DNA of 55,071 bases from Candidatus Pacearchaeota archaeon (GTDB lineage: Archaea; Nanobdellota; Nanobdellia; Pacearchaeales; GW2011-AR1): contig JACOWL010000009.1 of NCBI GenBank assembly GCA_016176815.1, positions 1-55,071 on the forward strand, written 5' to 3'. Below the pieces are notes generated by a model. It did not search any database. It saw only the letters and a list, made by a program, of their open reading frames with translations, and had not been told where the DNA came from. Shown here piece after piece: positions 1,291 through 7,672 of this stretch. Position 1 is the stretch's first letter, and each line of letters opens with the position of its first letter. Made by a program: the position numbers and the translations under genes.

Positions 1291-1938
1291 ATGGATTATA
1301 TAAAAGAGGCATTTAATAAAGTAAAACAAGACATAGATTTTTTAAAAGACGAATTAAATAATTTAAAAAAAGAATTAAAAGAAAATAGAGAATTGATGAT
1401 TAAAATTTGTGAAAATGTCCAGGAAATGTTTAGCCAATTAAACCAGACACATACGCAGTTAAGTCCAGCGCATAGAGAGAATATTCCAGCAGATAATTCT
1501 TTTTTTGAGCATTCTAACACAGGAAATTTAAGAATTTCCACTGGAAATGAAGGGGTTCCAGCAGACAGACAGACAAACCAGCAGACAGACAGACAAACAA
1601 AAAACAGCATAGAAAACGCCGTGGAAATGTATAAGTCTCTTGATAATTTAAAAAAAGAGATTTATACAAAATTTAAAAAACTTACAGAACAGGAATGGCT
1701 GGTTTTTTCAACAATATACCAATTTGATGAGGAAAATGGTTATTCAGATTATCGGATTCTGGCTGAAAAATTAAACCTTACAGAAAGTTCTATACGAGAC
1801 TATGTTTCAAGATTAATAAACAAGGGGATTCCCATAGATAAAACAAAGCTGAATAATAAGAACATAAGATTGAACATTTCTCAATCTCTTAAGCAAATAG
1901 CTTCTTTATCTAATTTACTTTATTTAAGAGATCTTTAG
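1291..1938 (+). CDS. Coiled-coil / low-complexity linker / C-terminal wHTH protein (hypothetical regulator or replication-type protein)
   Basis: 215-aa ORF. Heptad-like N-terminus (FLKDELNNLKKELKENREL), ADRQTNQQTDRQT linker, C-terminal 'LTESSIRDYVSRLINKGIPI' HTH-like segment. Confidence 0.5.
   Translation: MDYIKEAFNKVKQDIDFLKDELNNLKKELKENRELMIKICENVQEMFSQLNQTHTQLSPAHRENIPADNSFFEHSNTGNLRISTGNEGVPADRQTNQQTDRQTKNSIENAVEMYKSLDNLKKEIYTKFKKLTEQEWLVFSTIYQFDEENGYSDYRILAEKLNLTESSIRDYVSRLINKGIPIDKTKLNNKNIRLNISQSLKQIASLSNLLYLRDL
1558..1597. repeat. 20-nt x2 tandem repeat (CCAGCAGACAGACAGACAAA) built on a (CAGA)n microsatellite
   Basis: Read directly. The period is not a multiple of 3, so the two units are translated in different frames. 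Confidence 0.85.
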
Positions 1939-2016: not shown

Positions 2017-2305
2017 TTTAAACTCTCTAATTAAGACTTAGTTATGTCTTTTTAATTCTCTTGAAATTTAGTTCTTTCTAATATGTTCGTCCAACCGAAC
2101 AACTATTTTTAACTCTCTCTTTTCGACTTTGAAGAGCTATTAATTTTTAATTATTTAATAATCCCTACTTTTTACATTTATTTTCTTAATTTTTCGTTGT
2201 TTTTAACTCTCACTTTTTGAATTTTGAGGCATTTTTTAGCCAAGTTTTTGGTTAATTTAAGTGAAATTCTTTAATTTTCTTCTTTTTTAATCCTCACTTT
2301 TGTCT
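2017..2305. repeat. Iteron-like direct repeats, consensus TTTTTAACTCTC-N-CTTTT-N-GA-N-TTTGARG
   Basis: Best copies are 2106-2137 and 2200-2230. Weaker copies are at 2017-2032, 2048-2069 and 2284-2305. They lie in the convergent intergenic region between the two coiled-coil/wHTH genes. Confidence 0.6.
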
Positions 2306-2651
2306 TTTTTAACAATTTTTCGCGTATTTTTTCAGGAATAAACACTCTTTTTTTGCCGTTTCTTTCCACTACTTCTTCTATTAATCCTTCACTTTTAGAT
2401 TTTATATTATTTATTTGGCCCCTTATTGTTGATCTTTCTTTCCCTAAATCATCATAACTTAATTTCATTTCTGAATTTAACAAAACCCAAATGATTGCTC
2501 TTTCAGTTATAGAAAATTGGTCTAAATTCGGTGTTTGAACAGCTGTTTGAACAGCTGTTTGAACAGCATAAACAGCTGTTTGTTTATTCAACAGCTGTTT
2601 AGGTGTTTTAAAATTTGATTTTGGCTTTAATTCAGTTACTATAGAAAGCAC
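2271..2651 (-). CDS. Coiled-coil/wHTH protein, paralogous in architecture to 1291..1938; the true 5' end is probably near 2853
   Basis: The frame stays open upstream to 2861 and encodes '...KKDVEQLKEETKKGFDAVKKDISSVGEWIKHL...EIENLKNVLSIV'. An ATG at 2851-2853 is one frame off across a T6 run. TAVQTAVQTAVQT linker. C-terminal 'ERSTIRGQINNIKSKSEGLIEEV' is HTH-like. Confidence 0.5.
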   Translation of the reverse strand: MLSIVTELKPKSNFKTPKQLLNKQTAVYAVQTAVQTAVQTPNLDQFSITERAIIWVLLNSEMKLSYDDLGKERSTIRGQINNIKSKSEGLIEEVVERNGKKRVFIPEKIREKLLKKTKVRIKKEEN

Positions 2652-3018
2652 ATTTTTTAGATTTTCAATTTCATCATTTACCGACGATAAAAACTCTTTT
2701 AATTCTTTAATCTCTTCATCTTGTTTATTTTCTTTGGAATTAAGATGTTTTATCCATTCTCCAACAGAAGAAATATCTTTTTTAACAGCATCAAATCCTT
2801 TTTTTGTTTCTTCTTTGAGCTGTTCAACATCTTTTTTTCTAAAAAACCAGCATAATTTTTTTCAAATTTTTAATCTCAAAAGCACCTCAAAAAAGGTATT
2901 TTTTAATGAAAAACACCTACAAACAGCTGTTTAAAACACCCGCAAACAGCCGTTTGTTTTTTTCAACAACATAAGGTTTGCTCTTTTTATCGACGGAAAT
3001 TCTGGTTAAACAGCCGTT
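2533..3018. repeat. Array of the 10-bp palindrome AACAGCTGTT (5 exact, 2 AACAGCCGTT variants, 1 partial inverted copy)
   Basis: Exact copies at 2538, 2550, 2571, 2590 and 2922. Variants at 2945 and 3009. Partial copy at 2817-2827. The array includes a 12-nt x3 tandem (GTTTGAACAGCT) at 2533-2568 and a 23-nt x2 tandem at 2911-2955. Confidence 0.85.
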
Positions 3019-3050
3019 TAACTGACGATTAATGCTTTCATGATAATAAC

Positions 3051-3070
3051 TAAGCTAACCTAAGTGCACA
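3051..3070 (+). repeat. Copy A of the 20-bp site TAAGCTAACCTAAGTGCACA
   Basis: Shares the core with copies B and C: 6-bp inverted arms around a 5-bp YTAAC spacer, followed by GCA. Confidence 0.8.
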
Positions 3071-3151
3071 ACTTCCGGAAAAAAGAAAATTATTCAAAAA
3101 AATTTACCGGGAAAATATATAAATAGCTAACCTGTTGTTTAATTATAAGGC

Positions 3152-3388
3152 ATGGTTAATTTTAAAAGAGAATTCAGAAAACAAATTAGATTGGCTTTAG
3201 CCGCAGCCGTAGGATTCATTATCGCATTTGCCTGAAAAGATTTTGTCCTTAAATTAACCGGAGATGCTTTGTCAAAATTTTTAGAATTAAATCCCATAAC
3301 TTCTGCTCTTGCGATTGCAATAGTTATTACCCTTATCGGAGTTTTAATAATTTTAATGAGCTCTAGAGTCTTGAAAGAACTTAGTTAA
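3152..3388 (+). pseudogene. Small two-TM membrane protein (DUF5654-like from memory) with an in-frame TGA at codon 28
   Basis: MVNFKREFRKQIRLALAAAVGFIIAFA[TGA]KDFVLKL...ITSALAIAIVITLIGVLIILMSSRVLKELS*. The frame stays open for 50 further sense codons after the TGA (3233-3235). Homologs as I recall them carry W at that position. Confidence 0.5.
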
Positions 3389-3400
3389 CCTAAGTGCATT
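3381..3400 (+). repeat. Copy B of the 20-bp site TTAGTTAACCTAAGTGCATT
   Basis: ACTTAG-TTAAC-CTAAGT inverted arms. It contains the stop codon of ORF 3152..3388. Confidence 0.8.
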
Positions 3401-3456
3401 AAAAACTTGTTTTTAAGAATATAAATAATTAAAAAGAAATAGAATTTTAACTGATA

Positions 3457-3729
3457 ATGGCAATGAAAAGATTAGTAGATTATATTTTAGGGGGTGGAAT
3501 CAAAGGCAAAGTATTTGTTGCGCGCAAAAAACCAGAAAATCTACTTTATCGTGTTGAGAATCTTTCAAAGGATAAATTGTATGTAACGGAATATAATGAA
3601 GGCCAATTTAAGCAAACTAAATATAATTTAATCAAACATTTAATGGATATTGAGGGAGATTTTAATCAAAAAGTTTTTATCAAAGAAAATATGGATGAGC
3701 ATTCATTTGTTTCAAAATATGAATCTTAA
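3457..3729 (+). CDS. Hypothetical protein (90 aa), second cassette-like unit
   Basis: Clean ORF with an ATG start, bracketed by site copies B and C. No motif recognised. Confidence 0.45.
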   Translation: MAMKRLVDYILGGGIKGKVFVARKKPENLLYRVENLSKDKLYVTEYNEGQFKQTKYNLIKHLMDIEGDFNQKVFIKENMDEHSFVSKYES

Positions 3730-3738
3730 AAAATTAAC

Positions 3739-3758
3739 TTAGCTAACCTAAGTGCATA
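3739..3758 (+). repeat. Copy C of the 20-bp site TTAGCTAACCTAAGTGCATA
   Basis: ACTTAG-CTAAC-CTAAGT inverted arms, 10 nt after the stop of ORF 3457..3729. Confidence 0.8.
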
Positions 3759-3825
3759 AAATTCTTTAAAAATTTCTAAAAATCCATATATTTATTCATT
3801 TTAACATAAGATTTATATACTAAGG

Positions 3826-3844
3826 GCACGTTAAAATAACGTGC
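3826..3844. promoter_or_regulatory. Perfect 8-bp-arm palindrome GCACGTTA-AAA-TAACGTGC upstream of the recombinase gene
   Basis: Read directly. Degenerate half-sites of the 20-bp motif flank it (CTAAGGGCAC, CCCTAAGTTTACG, GCACTAAGG, AAGTGCACA) across 3820-3905. Confidence 0.6.
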
Positions 3845-3919
3845 ACCGCGTTGTCAATACCCTAAGTTTACGACGAAACATGCACTAAGGATATAAAGTG
3901 CACAGATAAAAAAAAGAAA

Positions 3920-4675
3920 ATGATTATTAATAAACCTCTATCGGCAATTTACATTCGCGTCTCAACAGAAGACCAGGTAAAACACGGGATTTCTTTGCAA
4001 GCTCAGGAAGACTCACTAAAAAATTATGCTAAGGCCCTGGGATATGAAATTTTTAAAATTTATAGAGATGAAGGCAAGTCTGCAAAAGACATTGCGCACA
4101 GGCCGGAAATGGTCCAAATGCTGGCAGATGCAGAAGCCAAAAAATTCCAGGCAATTTTTATATATAAACTTGACAGATTTTCCAGAAGCTTAATGGATTT
4201 AATCAGCACAATTGAAAAACTTAAGGAATGGGGAATTGATTTTGTAAGCATGCAGGATAAAATAGAAACCACAAGCGCGTCAGGAAAATTAATGTTCCAC
4301 ATTATAAGCGCCTTTGCAGAATTTGAAAGAAATGTTACAAGTGAAAGAACAAAATTTACAATGAAAGCCAAATTTCAAAACGGGGGACTGGTAACCCGGG
4401 CTCCGCTTGGCTATAAAATTATAAATAAAGAACTATTCCCTGCTGAGAACTCTTATATTGTCCAGGAAATTTATCAAAATTATTTAAATTCAGATATTTC
4501 ATTAACTCAATTAGCTAAAAAATATAATTTAAGTGTGAATGGACTGAAAAAAGTCTTGGTAAATAAAACATATCTTGGCAAGCTAAAATTTGCAGGAGAA
4601 ATTATTCAAGGCAAGCACAATTCATTAATCTCACAGGAACTTTTTAATAAAGTTCAGGATAAATTAAAAAAATAA
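3920..4675 (+). CDS. Serine recombinase (resolvase/invertase catalytic domain plus a short recombinase domain)
   Basis: 'AIYIRVSTEDQ' catalytic-serine motif, 'YKLDRFSRS', 'SASGKLMFHIISAFAEFERNVTSERT'. Confidence 0.85.
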   Translation: MIINKPLSAIYIRVSTEDQVKHGISLQAQEDSLKNYAKALGYEIFKIYRDEGKSAKDIAHRPEMVQMLADAEAKKFQAIFIYKLDRFSRSLMDLISTIEKLKEWGIDFVSMQDKIETTSASGKLMFHIISAFAEFERNVTSERTKFTMKAKFQNGGLVTRAPLGYKIINKELFPAENSYIVQEIYQNYLNSDISLTQLAKKYNLSVNGLKKVLVNKTYLGKLKFAGEIIQGKHNSLISQELFNKVQDKLKK

Positions 4676-4875: not shown

Positions 4876-5523
4876 ATGAAAAAATGGCAAATCAGAGCAA
4901 TTCTGCTTGATGTTGGCGGAGTTCTTGCTTTAGGCGGAAATTCTAAATGGAAAAAAGGAAAATTTATTCCATCCGGAGTCCATTTAAACATGGCTAAAAA
5001 ATTAAAGGTTTCCATTGATCAGTATCTTGATTCAATTGATACTGCTTATGTTTATGCGATTACAGGGAAACTTTCCCCAAAAAAAGTTCTTGAAATTCTT
5101 TCACAAAATTTTGGAATTTCTTCAAAAAAATTAAAAAAATTTTATTTAGATTCATATAAAAAAAATTTCAAACAAAATAAAAAGCTTTTCAATAAATTAT
5201 TTGAACTAAAAAAACAAGGCTATAAAATTGCAGTTTTATCTGACCAATGGTTTTTGTCCAAGGAAGCATTAATGCCTGAAAAACTTTATAAAAACTTTGA
5301 TGAGCTTATCGTTTCATGCGACGTCGGAGTTAGAAAGCCAAATCAAAAAATTTACCAATTGGCTGTTAAAAAATTAAATCTCTCTTCTAAAGAAATTTTA
5401 TTTATTGATAATCAGAAATGGAATCTTGAACCGGCTAAAAAATTTGGGATAAATGTAATTTTATTTAAGAGCAATAAGCAATTATTTAAAGAAAAAATTT
5501 GGAGAAATTTATTTAAAAAATGA
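4876..5523 (+). CDS. HAD-superfamily hydrolase (subfamily IA-like)
   Basis: 'ILLDVGGVLA' motif I variant, 'VLSDQW', 'KPNQKIY', 'FIDNQ'. Confidence 0.6.
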   Translation: MKKWQIRAILLDVGGVLALGGNSKWKKGKFIPSGVHLNMAKKLKVSIDQYLDSIDTAYVYAITGKLSPKKVLEILSQNFGISSKKLKKFYLDSYKKNFKQNKKLFNKLFELKKQGYKIAVLSDQWFLSKEALMPEKLYKNFDELIVSCDVGVRKPNQKIYQLAVKKLNLSSKEILFIDNQKWNLEPAKKFGINVILFKSNKQLFKEKIWRNLFKK

Positions 5524-5924
5524 TTTGCCCGCATTGTAAAAAAGAGATTAAACTTGAAAGAGGAGAAAAACAAAAATTAGGAATGATTAAGCGGGCTTCA
5601 AAAGGAAACCATGTTTCAAGAGTTCCATTTGGATATAAATGGGATTATGAAAATAAAAAAATTATTCCGGCTCAAAATTATCAGGAAGTTGAAGAAATTT
5701 TTAATGAATTTTTGCAGGAAGATATGAAATTAACGGCTCTTGCAAAAAAGCGAACTTTTTCTGTAAATGGCTTGAAAAAAATCCTGAAAAATTTTGCGTA
5801 TGTCGGCAAAGTAAAATTTGACGGACAAATTCACAACGGAAATCACAAGCCGATTATTTCGTCAATTTTATTCAATAAAGTTCAGGACAAATTGGAAAGG
5901 TTGAAAAGGAAAAAAAATTATTAA
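5520..5924 (+). CDS. Recombinase-domain-only paralog of the serine recombinase (no catalytic domain), N-terminal CPHC
   Basis: 'VPFGYKWDYENKKIIP...LTALAKKRTFSVNGLKKILKNFAYVGKVKFDGQIHNGNHKPIISSILFNKVQDKL' aligns by eye with residues ~160-250 of 3920..4675. Its start overlaps the HAD stop (ATGA). Confidence 0.6.
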   Translation: MICPHCKKEIKLERGEKQKLGMIKRASKGNHVSRVPFGYKWDYENKKIIPAQNYQEVEEIFNEFLQEDMKLTALAKKRTFSVNGLKKILKNFAYVGKVKFDGQIHNGNHKPIISSILFNKVQDKLERLKRKKNY

Positions 5925-6459: not shown

Positions 6460-6918
6460 TTATCTGTAAGAAGTTTGCCTCTTAGACCTGGCTTTTGAAT
6501 CGCCGGGTTTGTAAGCTTCTTTTTGTCTGACATCTGCAACAAGCAAATTTCTGTCATATTTCAAATAAGCTTCTTTTAATTCCTTAGGTTTTTCCTTGGA
6601 AAAATGTTTGGTTTCAGCTTTTGATTTTGTAAACTGAATAATTGCTCTCGCTAAAGCGAGCCTCGCAGCTTCAACCTGAGATTTTTCTCCGCCGCTTTTA
6701 ATTTTTATAGCAACGTCAAATTTCATATTGTCTTTGCCTAAAAGCTCTTCAGCAATTCTTATTGGTTCTTCAATTTTTAGTTTATCAAATAGCTGCAGAC
6801 TTTCGTAATTTTTATTATTTAAACTGACTTTTCCGGAGCCGTCTGTCAAAATTGCTCTTGCAACAGCAGTTTTTCTTTTTCCAGAGGTTATTATTTTATC
6901 GTTTGCCTTTTGCGTCAT
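6460..6918 (-). CDS. rps9: 30S ribosomal protein uS9
   Basis: 'GKRKTAVARA...', C-terminal '...KARSKRQTSYR'. Operon context L18e-L13-S9. Confidence 0.9.
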   Translation of the reverse strand: MTQKANDKIITSGKRKTAVARAILTDGSGKVSLNNKNYESLQLFDKLKIEEPIRIAEELLGKDNMKFDVAIKIKSGGEKSQVEAARLALARAIIQFTKSKAETKHFSKEKPKELKEAYLKYDRNLLVADVRQKEAYKPGDSKARSKRQTSYR

Positions 6919-7307
6919 TTTATGAATTCCTTTATTTTATTGGTTTTTATTTTGTTTTCTTTTTTTAATAAGATTAATTTTTTTTCTTCAAATTCTTTTG
7001 GAATTTTATCGTAGCATCTAATTCTTTTCCAGGCTTCACGGCCTCTGCCTTCCCGATAATTTGGCAGCATGCCCCTTATAGTTCTTTTTACAATTTTTTC
7101 AGTTTTACGGGGGTGTTTTGGACCTTTTTGGCTGCTTCCAAATCTTGATCTTTTTTCTAAAAATTCTTTTTCAATCCTCTTTCTATTTCCAGTAATAAGT
7201 ATATCAGAACAATTTACAATTGCAATTTCTTCGCCTTTTAAAGATTCTTTAGCGGCGTAACTTGCCAACCTTCCCAAAACCATTCCGGAGCCGTCAATTA
7301 TTTTCAT
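6915..7307 (-). CDS. rpl13: 50S ribosomal protein uL13
   Basis: 'IDGSGMVLGRLASYAAK...', 'IRGMLP'. 4-nt overlaps with both neighbours. Confidence 0.9.
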   Translation of the reverse strand: MKIIDGSGMVLGRLASYAAKESLKGEEIAIVNCSDILITGNRKRIEKEFLEKRSRFGSSQKGPKHPRKTEKIVKRTIRGMLPNYREGRGREAWKRIRCYDKIPKEFEEKKLILLKKENKIKTNKIKEFIK

Positions 7308-7672
7308 TTTAAAATCCTGATTCCTTCTGCAGAAGGATTTGATTTAATTTCCGTTAGGATGTTTGAAAATTCGCATCCCGATTTTTTTAATTTTTCTTTT
7401 GCCTTTTCAGAAAAACTTAATGCAATAACGTTTATTTTTTTATTAATTTCCCCTTGCGACAAAACTTTTCCCGGAACAATAACTTTTTCCTTTTCTTTTG
7501 TTTGGTTATTTATTTCGTTAAGATTTAAATTAATTCTTTTTCTTCGGGGGCCTGAAATAATTCCCGCAACCTCCAGCCAACTGTTTTTTTTCTTTGCAGA
7601 AAGCAGAGTTTCAATTAATTCAGGATTATTCTTTTTCTGCATTTGTTTTTCAATTTGTGTTTTCGATTTCAT
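7304..7672 (-). CDS. rpl18e: 50S ribosomal protein eL18 (L18e)
   Basis: 'ISGPRRKR...VIVPGKVLSQGEI.K.I.VIALSFSEKAKEKLKKSG' and its position in the archaeal L18e-L13-S9 cluster. Confidence 0.8.
   Translation of the reverse strand: MKSKTQIEKQMQKKNNPELIETLLSAKKKNSWLEVAGIISGPRRKRINLNLNEINNQTKEKEKVIVPGKVLSQGEINKKINVIALSFSEKAKEKLKKSGCEFSNILTEIKSNPSAEGIRILK

What the first reader, a model, noticed from the sequence alone, without database searches (positions are those of the whole stretch)
3051..3910. Cassette-like array: a 20-bp inverted-repeat site closes each of two small promoter+ORF units and leads into a serine recombinase gene
Three copies of TTAGYTAACCTAAGTGCA sit at 3051, 3381 and 3739, spaced 330 and 358 bp. 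Each has 6-bp inverted arms (ACTTAG / CTAAGT) around a 5-bp YTAAC spacer, which is the geometry of a recombinase core site. Each interval holds an AT-rich promoter-like stretch plus one small ORF. One ORF's stop codon lies inside the site. Between the last site and the recombinase start (3920) there are degenerate half-sites and a perfect 8-bp-arm palindrome. The layout recalls integron cassettes and attC sites, but with a serine rather than a tyrosine recombinase, and in an archaeon. I know of no described equivalent. Alternatives are res-type accessory sites or a local terminator family.
Basis: partly seen in the sequence, partly recalled or inferred. Interest (0 to 1): 0.72.

Follow-up and report, generated by a model that had tools for sequence, protein, structure and literature searches.

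The report
Archaeal gene-cassette array beside serine recombinase
A 25-base DNA site repeated after each of several small genes, next to a recombinase gene, marks one conserved spot in the chromosomes of tiny DPANN archaea where small gene modules differ between close strains; the layout recalls bacterial integrons but is built from different parts.

Summary
The three repeats are real: 3 hits against 0.09 expected, and none elsewhere in the 55 kb. They are copies of a 25-bp site, TAAC-W-AAGCTAACCTAAGTGCACAA. This site is conserved at one chromosomal locus of Pace-/Woesearchaeota (DPANN). It occurs in at least 120 metagenome contigs and in 16 of 22 recombinase-anchored species genomes. Orientation is 214:2, with 1-4 copies per locus. 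Arrays start beside a conserved wHTH gene. They end at a dif-like site and/or a 250-aa serine recombinase gene.

The intervals are modules of one promoter plus small genes. Close strains with colinear flanks carry different modules. In the window's own clade, four genomes share module 1 and each has a different recombinase-proximal module. About half of the break points coincide with site edges. The recombinase promoter is built from the same half-site. Viruses and plasmid-like elements carry single copies, two of them next to their own integrase.

The hairpin is not conserved, so the site is neither a terminator nor attC-like.

Best reading: a site-specific-recombination cassette locus. The enzyme assignment is inferred. 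Arrays also occur next to a XerA-like gene, three left break points lie outside the sites, and the site geometry is atypical for a serine recombinase. I found no description in the searchable literature.

The parts
2271..2870 (-). Left boundary gene F0 (coiled coil + QTAV repeats + winged helix). It is conserved directly to the left of every chromosomal array. In the window it has lost its start codon.
   Evidence: F0 lies on the minus strand upstream of the first site in 47 of 53 site-ascertained loci that have enough upstream DNA (maps). The window lacks 83 bp at 2851|2852, which hold the ATG in L151-L153 and L003.
2907..3025 (.). Intergenic AAACAGCYGTTT palindromic boxes between F0 and the first site. 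They form the conserved left border region and are not part of the repeated site.
   Evidence: Repeat family D1/D6. Two to five such boxes lie in the same place in about 50 other loci.
3047..3071 (+). Site 1: TAACTAAGCTAACCTAAGTGCACAA
   Evidence: It matches the 25-nt consensus built from 239 distinct sites.
3072..3376 (+). Module 1: TATA-like box at about 3113-3124 and a DUF5654 small membrane protein ORF at 3152-3388. The ORF has a nonsense TGA at 3233-3235, and its stop codon lies inside site 2.
   Evidence: PF18898, E = 1.5e-10 with W placed at the TGA. L003 has TGG there. Homologous module in L003, L165, L011, L102, L127 and L131.
3377..3401 (+). Site 2: GAACTTAGTTAACCTAAGTGCATTA
   Evidence: Homology with L003 and with L165 ends exactly at 3398, the right edge of the site core.
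3402..3734 (+). Module 2 (recombinase-proximal, variable): TATA-like box at about 3419-3428 and a 90-aa ORF at 3457-3729. The ORF has no Pfam, PHROG or PADLOC match.
   Evidence: Replaced by unrelated DNA in L003 (80-aa ORF), L165 (64-aa + 68-aa ORFs) and L011 (f15 family). The 5.8-billion-protein search returned only its own cluster; a likely distant relative (111-aa ORF, L040) was seen by eye. No family hits.
3735..3759 (+). Site 3: TAACTTAGCTAACCTAAGTGCATAA
   Evidence: Homology with L003 resumes inside its left arm.
3808..3919 (+). Recombinase promoter/operator region. Contents: TATA box (TTTATATA, 3812-3819), ACTAAGGGCAC (3819-3829), CGTGCAC (3840-3846), CCCTAAGTTTAC (3860-3871), TGCACTAAGG (3881-3890, inverted) and AAGTGCAC (3897-3904). 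The local palindrome GCACGTTAAAATAACGTGC (3826-3844) replaces the right half of the family-wide palindrome ACTTAGGG-CA-CCCTAAGT.
   Evidence: The layout TATAT-ACTTAGGGCACCCTAAGT-N3-CGTGAAC-N14-CCCTAAGTTCAC-SD-ATG appears in about 20 loci. Gap-free alignment of the window with L011. CCCTAAGT precedes a full-length recombinase gene in 27 of 78 occurrences, against 14 occurrences in total for the reversed control word.
3920..4675 (+). REC: 251-aa serine recombinase with a catalytic domain plus 'Recombinase' domain. It has no zinc-ribbon or coiled-coil part.
   Evidence: PF00239, 1.1e-41, and PF07508, 1.3e-08. PHROG 95 'integrase', profile positions 91-357 of 651. Closest solved structure: TP901-1 integrase catalytic domain 3bvp, 7.5e-26. 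The homologue search returned 1573 proteins with E <= 0.001; the best 120 are 73-91% identical.
5520..5924 (+). RD-only paralogue: the Recombinase DNA-binding domain without a catalytic domain. It is a candidate second protein able to read the same half-site.
   Evidence: PF07508, 1.8e-07. 48.7% identical to REC residues 141-251. Present in most loci, where its identity tracks host divergence, unlike REC. No half-site in front of its own gene.

Best explanation
The three repeats are copies of a 25-bp protein-recognition site. It has a strongly conserved right arm (CCTAAGTGCAC), a weaker inverted left arm (CACWAAG) and the centre CTAA. The site marks a site-specific recombination locus that is conserved in the chromosomes of Pace-/Woesearchaeota.

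Shown:
- The site occurs in one orientation, 1-4 times, in the interval between the F0 gene and the dif-like site/recombinase gene.
- It cuts that interval into modules of one promoter and one or two small genes.
- Module content differs between close strains with colinear flanks.
- Many break points sit at the site edges.
- The same site occurs singly in virus and plasmid-like contigs.

Inferred:
- A recombinase pairs two sites. Recombination between a chromosomal site and a site on a circular DNA (an excised module, or a virus or plasmid genome) inserts that DNA. Recombination between two direct chromosomal sites deletes the interval as a circle.
- The slot next to the recombinase gene turns over fastest.
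- The adjacent 251-aa serine recombinase (a large-serine-recombinase derivative reduced to catalytic domain + Recombinase domain) is the most likely enzyme. It probably also represses its own promoter, which carries a palindrome of the same half-site over the TATA/start region.
For: Locus specificity:
- There are 3 hits in the window and none elsewhere.
- In 22 recombinase-anchored species genomes there are 30 hits in 16 loci. All lie 26-2516 bp upstream of the recombinase gene, and 29 are on its strand.
- In 120 site-anchored metagenome loci, orientation is 214:2. F0 lies directly upstream in 47 of the 53 loci that have room for it. Of the six exceptions, three are mobile elements, two look like chance hits and one is uncharacterised.

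Module structure:
- Modular maps in more than 50 loci.
- Homologous modules in different neighbourhoods align from site to site and no further.

Strain comparisons:
- Window vs L003 (95% DNA identity): module 2 is swapped. The breaks are at the right edge of site 2 and inside the left arm of site 3.
- Window vs L165: the same two break points.
- L047/L123 and L031/L107: the break is exactly at the right edge of the last site.
- Window, L003, L165 and L011 share module 1, and each has a different recombinase-proximal module.

Link to the recombinase:
- Adjacency.
- The promoter architecture built from CCTAAGT half-sites.
- CCCTAAGT lies within 130 bp upstream of full-length REC 27 times.
- The catalytic motifs read as intact in the translated sequence (YIRVST, DRFSR, EFER).

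Mobile elements with the site:
- Tailed-virus contigs L105/L146, L148, L096, L036, L150 and L157 carry one copy each.
- L116/L163 has one copy 370 bp from its own serine recombinase gene.
- L142 has two tandem copies 140 bp from a tyrosine integrase gene.

Not a structured RNA:
- No Rfam match, and hairpins are no better than shuffles.
- No arm covariation.
Against: - In L040/L124, L053/L145 and window/L011 the left break lies 55-110 bp to the right of the site, just past the next TATA box.
- The two CTWAG cores are 5 bp apart in array sites, 6 bp in the recombinase promoter palindrome and 4 bp in virus L157. Only the 6-bp form has the 2-bp centre that a serine recombinase dimer cuts.
- Intact arrays stand next to a XerA-like gene (L031, L074, L124, L131, L141, L111, L073), or next to no recombinase within 6 kb (L048, L089, L138, L134).
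- Genomes L169 and L170 have the recombinase and F0 but no array sites.
- The divergent REC2 clade has a different promoter palindrome, yet its arrays keep the standard site.
- Module proteins are not more alike than F0 between distant hosts, so turnover is local and slow compared with mobile integrons.
- No circular junction or clean deletion allele was found. The five extra population contigs were identical in the array.
Confidence: 0.5

Rival explanations
1. The sites are only binding sites (operators, insulators or road-blocks) for Recombinase-domain DNA-binding proteins. These would be REC itself and the vertically inherited RD-only paralogue, which often has an N-terminal coiled coil. 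Module shuffling would then come from ordinary homologous or illegitimate recombination between the conserved 25-70-bp linkers.
For: - In the REC and HAD-REC promoters the half-site abuts the TATA box, a typical repressor position.
- RD-only is present in nearly all loci, including those without REC, and tracks host phylogeny.
- Three break points lie after a shared promoter rather than at the site.
- Core spacing varies from 4 to 6 bp, which binding tolerates more easily than catalysis does.
Against: - Array sites lie at gene 3' ends, at variable distance (about 17-110 bp) from the next TATA box. That is not a fixed operator or activator geometry.
- Strict co-orientation of 214:2 is not needed for binding of a near-palindrome.
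- Break points fall exactly at site edges in five junctions.
- Viruses and integrase-bearing elements carry single copies.
- RD-only genes have no half-site in their own upstream regions.
Confidence: 0.2
2. The site is the attachment site of mobile elements that bring or use tyrosine (XerA-like) integrases. The array is a row of scars from successive integrations next to dif, and the serine recombinase is a bystander that happens to sit in the same hot spot.
For: - Element L142 has a 313-aa tyrosine integrase gene 140 bp from two tandem perfect sites.
- Arms of 8-9 bp around a 5-7-bp asymmetric spacer fit a tyrosine-recombinase core.
- A XerA-like gene replaces REC at the same position in many loci, and a dif-like site lies 37-383 bp from the last site in 32 of 112 loci.
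- Full sequence identity between element and host sites is what tyrosine integrases need.
Against: - The chromosomal XerA-like gene has its own, different site (ACTTCGCACAA-N6-TTGTGCGAAGT), and a half-dif lies at its promoter rather than the array half-site.
- Modules are single small genes with promoters and belong to recurrent host-co-diverging families. They are not decaying integrase-bearing elements.
- A related element (L116/L163) pairs the site with a serine recombinase.
- REC promoters are built from the array half-site.
Confidence: 0.15
3. The sites are part of a res-like multimer/chromosome-dimer resolution system. The last site plus the promoter-proximal elements would form a res, REC would be a resolvase, and the extra upstream copies would be duplications without a function of their own.
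For: - About 160 bp upstream of REC hold a full site, a palindrome and a third element with inverted GTGAAC/GTTCAC ends. The gene lies directly downstream, as in Tn3-family res/tnpR autoregulation.
- The locus lies next to dif and about 3-4 kb from an Orc1/Cdc6-like gene (identified by eye from its sequence).
- REC is more conserved than ribosomal proteins.
Against: - This does not explain why every module ends in a site.
- It does not explain the arrays without REC.
- It does not explain the site in viruses.
- It does not explain module replacement at site edges.
Confidence: 0.08
4. A local family of transcription terminators or RNA hairpins at gene 3' ends.
For: - Sites follow ORFs.
- Copies 2 and 3 in the window can form a 6-bp stem.
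Against: - Folding energies are -1.8 to -4.7 kcal/mol, no better than shuffles, and there is no T-run.
- The arm pair -3/+7 is complementary in 28% of sites, with no compensatory change.
- The first site of every array follows no co-oriented gene.
- Tandem sites and empty intervals exist.
- The site is absent from the other 50 kb of the window.
- No Rfam family matches.
Confidence: 0.03

Closest known systems
Integrons (IntI tyrosine recombinase, attI, attC gene cassettes), including the archaeal integrons reported in PMC9668308
   Same: - A recombinase gene sits beside an array of co-oriented small gene cassettes.
- Each cassette ends in a copy of a recombination-type site.
- The slot nearest the recombinase gene is the most variable.
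- The recombinase promoter overlaps site-like elements.
   Different: - The recombinase is a serine enzyme, not IntI.
- The site is 25 bp of conserved sequence, without the conserved folded structure of attC.
- The cassettes carry their own TATA-like promoters.
- The recombinase gene is co-oriented with the array rather than divergent.
- Turnover appears slow, and cassette families co-diverge with the host.
Staphylococcal cassette chromosome (SCC) elements and composite SCC islands (Ccr large serine recombinases; my own knowledge, not checked here)
   Same: - A serine recombinase of the large-serine lineage.
- Tandem cassettes at one fixed chromosomal site, separated by short direct repeats.
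- Some cassettes lack a recombinase and would need one in trans.
   Different: - SCC units are kilobases to tens of kilobases long and carry ccr genes inside.
- Ccr proteins have the full zinc-ribbon/coiled-coil C-terminus.
- The SCC target is the 3' end of rlmH.
- Here the units are 0.2-1.2 kb, the enzyme is truncated to 250 aa, and the target is intergenic.
Xer/dif-dependent modules (IMEX elements at dif; pdif modules on Acinetobacter plasmids; my own knowledge)
   Same: - A host-encoded housekeeping-type recombinase would be exploited by small modules and by viruses that carry only the site.
- The result is arrays of site-module-site.
- The array lies beside a dif-like site in many relatives.
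   Different: - The repeated site is not the dif-like sequence.
- XerA and dif are absent from the window.
- The candidate enzyme is a serine recombinase.
Tn3/gamma-delta res-resolvase autoregulation
   Same: - Several recombinase-binding elements are packed in about 150 bp immediately upstream of the recombinase gene and overlap its promoter.
   Different: - REC has a Recombinase domain instead of the small HTH_7 domain.
- The additional sites are spread over 0.3-2.5 kb, with genes between them.
- No transposase or transposon ends are present.
Large serine recombinases (phage integrases TP901-1, A118/LI, phiC31, Bxb1)
   Same: - REC matches their catalytic domain and Recombinase domain best.
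   Different: - The zinc-ribbon domain and the coiled-coil that set attP x attB directionality are missing.
- The partner sites here are near-identical copies, not distinct attP and attB.

Membership tests
Integron | IntI-type tyrosine recombinase next to the array | tested here: not met
   The adjacent gene is PF00239/PF07508, a serine recombinase. tblastn with two tyrosine recombinases finds nothing in the 55-kb window.
Integron | attC sites: imperfect inverted repeats that act as folded single strands, with structure conserved but not sequence | tested here: not met
   Here the sequence is conserved and the structure is not. The arm pair -3/+7 is complementary in 49 of 173 sites, with no compensation. 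Folding is no better than shuffles.
Integron | Co-oriented cassettes, each bounded by one site, with variable content | tested here: met
   Orientation 214:2, 1-4 sites per locus, and modules differ between close strains.
Integron | Mostly promoterless cassettes expressed from a common Pc promoter | tested here: inconclusive
   Each window module has its own TATA-like box 25-35 bp before the ATG. No transcript data are available.
Large serine recombinase (phage-type integrase) | Resolvase catalytic domain with the catalytic serine motif | tested here: met
   PF00239, 1.1e-41. YIRVSTEDQ, DRFSR and EFER are present in the translated sequence. 3bvp, 7.5e-26.
Large serine recombinase (phage-type integrase) | Recombinase domain (PF07508) after helix E | tested here: met
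   PF07508, 1.3e-08, residues 177-251.
Large serine recombinase (phage-type integrase) | Zinc-ribbon domain with embedded coiled coil; length above about 400 aa | tested here: not met
   The protein is 251 aa and ends with the Recombinase domain. It covers only positions 91-357 of the 651-position PHROG 95 profile. Relatives are 249-275 aa.
Small serine resolvase/invertase (Tn3, gamma-delta, Hin, Gin) | Catalytic domain followed by a short C-terminal helix-turn-helix (HTH_7 type) | tested here: not met
   The C-terminal part matches PF07508, and no HTH_7 hit appears. Matches to invertase and resolvase structures cover the catalytic domain and helix E only.
Small serine resolvase/invertase (Tn3, gamma-delta, Hin, Gin) | res with three dimer-binding subsites in about 120 bp, or inverted crossover sites with an enhancer | tested here: inconclusive
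   Three site-like elements lie in about 160 bp upstream of REC in about 20 loci. The array sites are all direct and far apart. Binding was not tested.
Xer/dif module (IMEX, pdif) | Modules flanked by dif-like 11-6-11 sites recognised by Xer recombinases | tested here: not met
   A dif-like ACTTCGCACAA-N6-TTGTGCGAAGT lies beside many arrays, but it is a different sequence from the repeated site. Neither it nor XerA is in the window.
Intrinsic terminator / structured RNA | Stable conserved hairpin (plus a T-run) at transcript ends, or an Rfam family match | tested here: not met

The most novel reading that the evidence does not exclude
Pace-/Woesearchaeota keep a chromosomal, integron-like gene-cassette platform run by a minimal serine recombinase, a large-serine-recombinase derivative without the zinc-ribbon/coiled-coil module. 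Small promoter-bearing cassettes, mostly small membrane proteins, are inserted and removed at a 25-bp site next to dif. The viruses and plasmids of these archaea carry the same site so that they can dock there using the host enzyme.
Probability: 0.35. Interest if true: 0.85.

Novelty: new variant of a known kind. Interest (0 to 1): 0.66.

Why it matters
- DPANN archaea have tiny genomes, live on other cells and cannot yet be manipulated genetically. How they vary their surface and membrane repertoire is an open question.
- A conserved locus where small, mostly membrane-protein genes are exchanged, tied to a very conserved 250-aa recombinase and to sites carried by their viruses, would be a defined and testable mechanism of genome plasticity in this lineage.
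- It would also be a second, independently built cassette-array system besides tyrosine-recombinase integrons.
- A short serine recombinase that works on a 25-bp site, if it is active without host factors, would be of interest as a compact genome-engineering tool.
- Even the weaker reading matters: a fixed hot spot bounded by F0 and dif gives a marker for strain typing and for linking DPANN viruses to their hosts.

Tried and rejected
- TGA recoding in ORF 1: rejected. L003 has TGG at that codon and nothing else points to recoding.
- Duplicated 3' end of a tRNA or ncRNA gene as integration target: rejected. The sequence left of the first site is not conserved apart from the AACAGCTGTTT boxes, the tRNAs are 4 kb away, and there is no Rfam hit.
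- Terminator, RNA hairpin or attC-like folding: rejected.
- The chromosomal XerA-like gene f8 as the enzyme for the array site: unlikely, because it has its own dif-like site and a half-dif at its promoter.
- Autoregulated RD-only protein: no half-sites upstream of its gene.
- Fast horizontal spread of cassettes: not seen. Cassette identity tracks F0 identity.
- Population variants of the window's own array: five further Logan contigs are 100% identical in the array, so they gave no information.
- Homologues of the module 2 protein: the 5.8-billion-protein search returned only its own cluster.
- REC in IMG/VR: none found.
- Defence-system models: no PADLOC hit for any locus protein.
- Literature searches for the system (serine recombinase + DPANN/Woesearchaeota/Pacearchaeota, archaeal integrons, hypervariable islands): only the tyrosine-IntI archaeal integron paper turned up.
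- Not possible: genome-wide co-occurrence of REC and arrays.
Full report
OBSERVATION. The pattern TTAGYTAACCTAAGTGCA, allowing up to three mismatches, hits the 55-kb window three times. The hits are at 3051, 3381 and 3739, all on the + strand. The chance expectation is 0.09, and no shuffle reached three hits.

Read in register, the copies extend to 25 nt: 3047-3071, 3377-3401 and 3735-3759. Copy 1 has ACTAAG where copies 2 and 3 have ACTTAG, so the 6-bp inverted arms are perfect in two copies only.

Interval 1 holds a TATA-like box and an ORF at 3152-3388. This ORF is a DUF5654 small membrane protein if the in-frame TGA at 3233 is read as Trp, and its stop codon lies in site 2. Interval 2 holds a TATA-like box and a 90-aa ORF (3457-3729) with no family match.

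Between site 3 and the ATG at 3920 lie several half-site-like elements and the palindrome GCACGTTAAAATAACGTGC.

The gene at 3920-4675 encodes a 251-aa serine recombinase, here called REC. It has a Resolvase catalytic domain plus a Recombinase domain. It matches the first 40% of phage large-serine-integrase profiles, and its closest solved structure is the TP901-1 integrase catalytic domain.

WHERE THE WINDOW COMES FROM. The recombinase protein occurs identically on a Woesearchaeota/DPANN MAG contig. Its relatives are named Pacearchaeota, Woesearchaeota or Nanoarchaeota. The ribosomal protein genes S9-L13-L18e and the tRNAs follow downstream.

THE SITE IS A CONSERVED FEATURE OF ONE LOCUS. I fetched 22 further loci from species-representative genomes by searching with the recombinase only (64-79% identity).
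- The 14-mer CTAACCTAAGTGCA with up to 2 mismatches occurs 30 times in 16 of these loci.
- Every hit lies 26-2516 bp upstream of the recombinase gene, and 29 are on its strand.
- No hit lies downstream or further away.

Among these:
- The sites are co-oriented 214:2.
- There are 1-4 per locus, with a median spacing of 410 bp.
- In 47 of the 53 loci with enough upstream DNA, the first site is preceded by the same minus-strand gene, here called F0 (coiled coil, QTGV repeats, winged helix).

Two of the six exceptions look like chance hits inside unrelated genes (L094, L026), three are mobile elements (L105, L116, L142), and one (L083) was not characterised.

The gene maps show a syntenic region. 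It runs: Orc1/Cdc6-like (assigned by eye from the sequence), PRC-barrel, f5, F3, F2, F0(-), then the array, then REC or other genes, then S9-L13-L18e and further conserved genes (f20, f22, f23, f30). I read these last four as an RNA polymerase subunit D-like protein and ribosomal proteins S11, S4 and S13, from sequence appearance and gene order; I did not test this.

The consensus from 239 distinct sites is TAAC-W-AAGCTAACCTAAGTGCACAA. The right arm CCTAAGTGCAC is nearly invariant and the left arm is weaker.

THE INTERVALS BEHAVE AS MODULES. Intervals hold one or two small genes, usually on the site strand. The recurrent families are DUF5654, DUF3096-like f24, other small membrane proteins (f12, f32, f33) and small soluble proteins (f15, f35, f57, f61, f81). 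The same family sits in different slots and beside different neighbours. When homologous modules from different contexts are aligned with 150-bp flanks, the alignments typically start at the left site and stop at, or a few bases after, the right site.

STRAIN COMPARISONS. L003 is 94-96% identical to the window in DNA. It has the same site 1, module 1 and site 2, but 358 unrelated bp with a different 80-aa ORF in place of module 2. Homology stops at 3398, the right edge of site 2, and resumes in the left arm of site 3.

L165 (REC 91% identical) has the same three-site layout and module 1. It carries a third version of module 2, and the homology again breaks at 3398 and near the left edge of site 3. 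L011 has a fourth version. So in this clade the recombinase-proximal slot is the variable one.

Other pairs give a mixed picture:
- L047/L123 and L031/L107 break exactly at the right edge of the last site. What follows is REC in one genome and a XerA-like gene or other genes in the other.
- L040/L124 (99.6% identical flanks), L053/L145 and window/L011 break on the left 55-110 bp after the site, just past the next TATA box. The promoter is kept and the ORF is replaced.

Of eleven scorable junctions, six lie at a site edge, where roughly 5% would be expected for random breaks. Three left junctions clearly do not. The remaining two are right junctions that fall at other landmarks outside the sites.

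LINK TO THE RECOMBINASE. Where REC has its own promoter (about 20 loci), the upstream 110 bp follow one plan. The order is:
1. TTTATAT.
2. The palindrome ACTTAGGG-CA-CCCTAAGT.
3. CGTGAAC.
4. About 14 nt.
5. CCCTAAGTTCAC.
6. A Shine-Dalgarno-like AAAGAGG.
7. ATG.

In loci where REC follows the HAD gene, the operon promoter is TTTATAAA directly followed by CCTTAGTGCAC.

The word CCCTAAGT occurs 78 times in all held loci, against 14 for its reversed control. In 27 cases it lies within 130 bp upstream of a full-length REC gene.

The window fits this plan without gaps, but the right half of its palindrome has mutated. The placement over the TATA/start region is what autorepression would look like, and it argues that REC reads the CCTAAGT half-site. 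This step is inference; nothing here shows binding.

WHAT SPEAKS AGAINST A SIMPLE 'SERINE INTEGRON'.
- First, geometry. The two CTWAG cores are 5 bp apart in array sites, 6 bp apart in the REC promoter palindrome and 4 bp apart in virus L157. Only the 6-bp form offers the central dinucleotide a serine recombinase cuts.
- Second, intact arrays occur where the next gene is a XerA-like tyrosine recombinase (PF00589), or where no recombinase lies within 6 kb. I could not check whether REC lies elsewhere in those genomes.
- Third, a divergent REC clade (42-44% identity) has another promoter palindrome while its arrays keep the standard site.
- Fourth, L169 and L170 have REC and F0 but no array sites.
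- Fifth, module proteins are no more similar between distant hosts than F0 is. This is not a fast horizontal cassette pool.

A DNA-binding paralogue, RD-only (window 5520-5924), consists of the Recombinase domain only and often has an N-terminal coiled coil or zinc-finger-like motif. It is present in most loci and tracks host phylogeny. REC instead stays at 64-91% identity whatever the host divergence. RD-only could read the same half-site.

THE NEIGHBOURING DIF-LIKE SITE. In 32 of 112 loci an 11-6-11 palindrome, ACTTCGCACAA-N6-TTGTGCGAAGT, lies 37-383 bp to the right of the last array site. The XerA-like gene carries a half copy at its own promoter. So each of the two recombinase genes has its own kind of site at its promoter. 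This argues against the chromosomal XerA-like enzyme acting on the array site. The window has neither dif nor XerA.

MOBILE ELEMENTS CARRY THE SITE.
- Tailed-virus contigs with terminase, portal and capsid genes have one full site a few hundred bp upstream of the terminase gene (L105=L146=L156, L148, L096, L036, L150; variant in L157).
- L116=L147=L163, a 26-kb IMG/VR contig, has one site 370 bp from a small resolvase-type serine recombinase gene.
- The related element L142 has two tandem perfect sites 140 bp from a 313-aa tyrosine integrase gene.

A single site next to an integrase gene is the usual look of an attachment site. Together with the chromosomal arrays, this makes 'recombination site' more likely than 'operator only'. 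It leaves open which enzyme class acts on it.

ALTERNATIVES TESTED.
- RNA hairpin or terminator. Folding energies are -1.8 to -4.7 kcal/mol and no better than shuffles. There is no Rfam hit, no T-run, no compensatory change between the arms, and the first site of each array follows no co-oriented gene.
- attC-like folding: the same evidence applies.
- Duplicated end of a tRNA or ncRNA target: nothing is conserved to the left of the first site except the AACAGCTGTTT boxes.
- Defence island: no PADLOC hits.

VERDICT. The repeated site is real, conserved and locus-specific, and it bounds gene modules that turn over between close strains.
- Best-supported mechanism: site-specific insertion and deletion of small modules, and docking of site-bearing viruses or plasmids, with the adjacent short serine recombinase as the most likely enzyme and as repressor of its own gene. 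I put this at about 0.5.
- Binding-only function with homologous shuffling: about 0.2.
- Attachment site for tyrosine-integrase elements with REC as bystander: about 0.15.
- res-like resolution system: about 0.08.
- Terminator: about 0.03.

The system works like an integron or an SCC island in layout, but it fails the defining tests of both families. REC is a large-serine-recombinase derivative that lacks the zinc-ribbon/coiled-coil part. Five literature searches found only tyrosine-IntI integrons in Archaea (PMC9668308) and nothing on this locus. I therefore rate it a new variant of a known kind, with interest 0.66.

Noticed in passing
window 3233-3235: An in-frame TGA interrupts the DUF5654 ORF (3152-3388) at a conserved Trp. 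Strain L003 has TGG. Five Logan contigs from sister samples are 100% identical to the window across this position. It is a real nonsense allele in this population, not stop-codon recoding.
   Followed up: yes
window 2851|2852: The window lacks 83 bp that L151-L153 have at this point (L003 has about 93 bp). The missing piece contains the ATG (MFGWFF...) and the 5' region of the conserved F0 gene. As a result the F0 reading frame at 2271-~2870 (minus strand) has no start codon here. This is either a deletion allele or an assembly collapse.
   Followed up: partly
window 2535-2600 and 2907-3025; same place in about 50 loci: Palindromic AAACAGCTGTTTAAACA boxes, 2-5 copies, plus a CGTCGAYAAA box, fill the gap between the F0 start and the first array site in nearly all genomes. 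The same DNA word, repeated in frame, encodes the QTAV/QTGV repeats inside F0. They look like iterons or operators for the F0/F2 winged-helix proteins. An Orc1/Cdc6-like gene (assigned by eye from its sequence) lies 3-4 kb away.
   Followed up: partly
window 5735-5839: A 105-bp in-frame segment of the RD-only ORF (5520-5924) is absent from the otherwise 99.8-99.96% identical MAG contig L001, which encodes 99 aa instead of 134 aa.
   Followed up: no
L068 2698, L111 535, L137 949, L125 926, L059 401, L090 1186 and others: A dif-like 11-6-11 palindrome, ACTTCGCACAA-N6-TTGTGCGAAGT, lies 37-383 bp to the right of the last array site in 32 of 112 loci. The XerA-like gene at this locus has a half copy (AAGTTCGCACAAT) between its TATA box and its ATG. 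Neither is in the window.
   Followed up: partly
loci L004-L025, L165-L170 compared with window 3920-4675 and 6460-7672: REC stays at 64-91% amino-acid identity to the window whatever the host divergence. It is often more conserved than ribosomal proteins S9, L13 and L18e (38-93%). The nearest host relative, L011, has only 70%. This suggests strong constraint plus exchange between lineages. The RD-only paralogue instead tracks the host.
   Followed up: partly
L040 vs L124/L074; L047 vs L123: In populations with 99.6% (or 90-94%) identical flanks, the whole island including the recombinase gene is swapped. Full-length REC appears in one genome. In the other the slot holds a XerA-like gene, followed in L124/L074 by a 98-aa HNH endonuclease ORF.
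   Followed up: partly
L156-L162, L148 (IMG/VR): Eight related tailed-virus contigs all begin 200-800 bp upstream of the terminase large-subunit gene. In four viral contigs the array-type site (or a palindromic variant, GCACTAAGG-TA-CCTTAGTGC in L157) lies in that stretch (L156, L157, L148, L096). Of these, L156 and L157 have it within about 200 bp of the contig end. L096 has ORB-like inverted repeats (TTCCAGTGGAA) next to the site.
   Followed up: partly
L142 7104-7150, L028, L082: Two complete sites stand in tandem with 23-bp spacing and nothing between them. 'Empty' intervals of 75-280 bp without an ORF occur in L048, L013 and L049.
   Followed up: no
L011 2650-2680: The counterpart of the window's site 2 is disrupted in L011 by a 6-bp insertion (CCTAA-TTTATA-GTGCA). 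This fuses two modules into one interval and looks like an example of site decay.
   Followed up: no
window 1291-1938 and 2271-2651: F2 and F0 are paralogous in architecture: an N-terminal coiled coil, a low-complexity repeat (DRQT... or QTAV...) and a C-terminal winged helix with weak DnaD_N/HTH_24 similarity. They are divergently arranged and conserved throughout the lineage. Function unknown.
   Followed up: no
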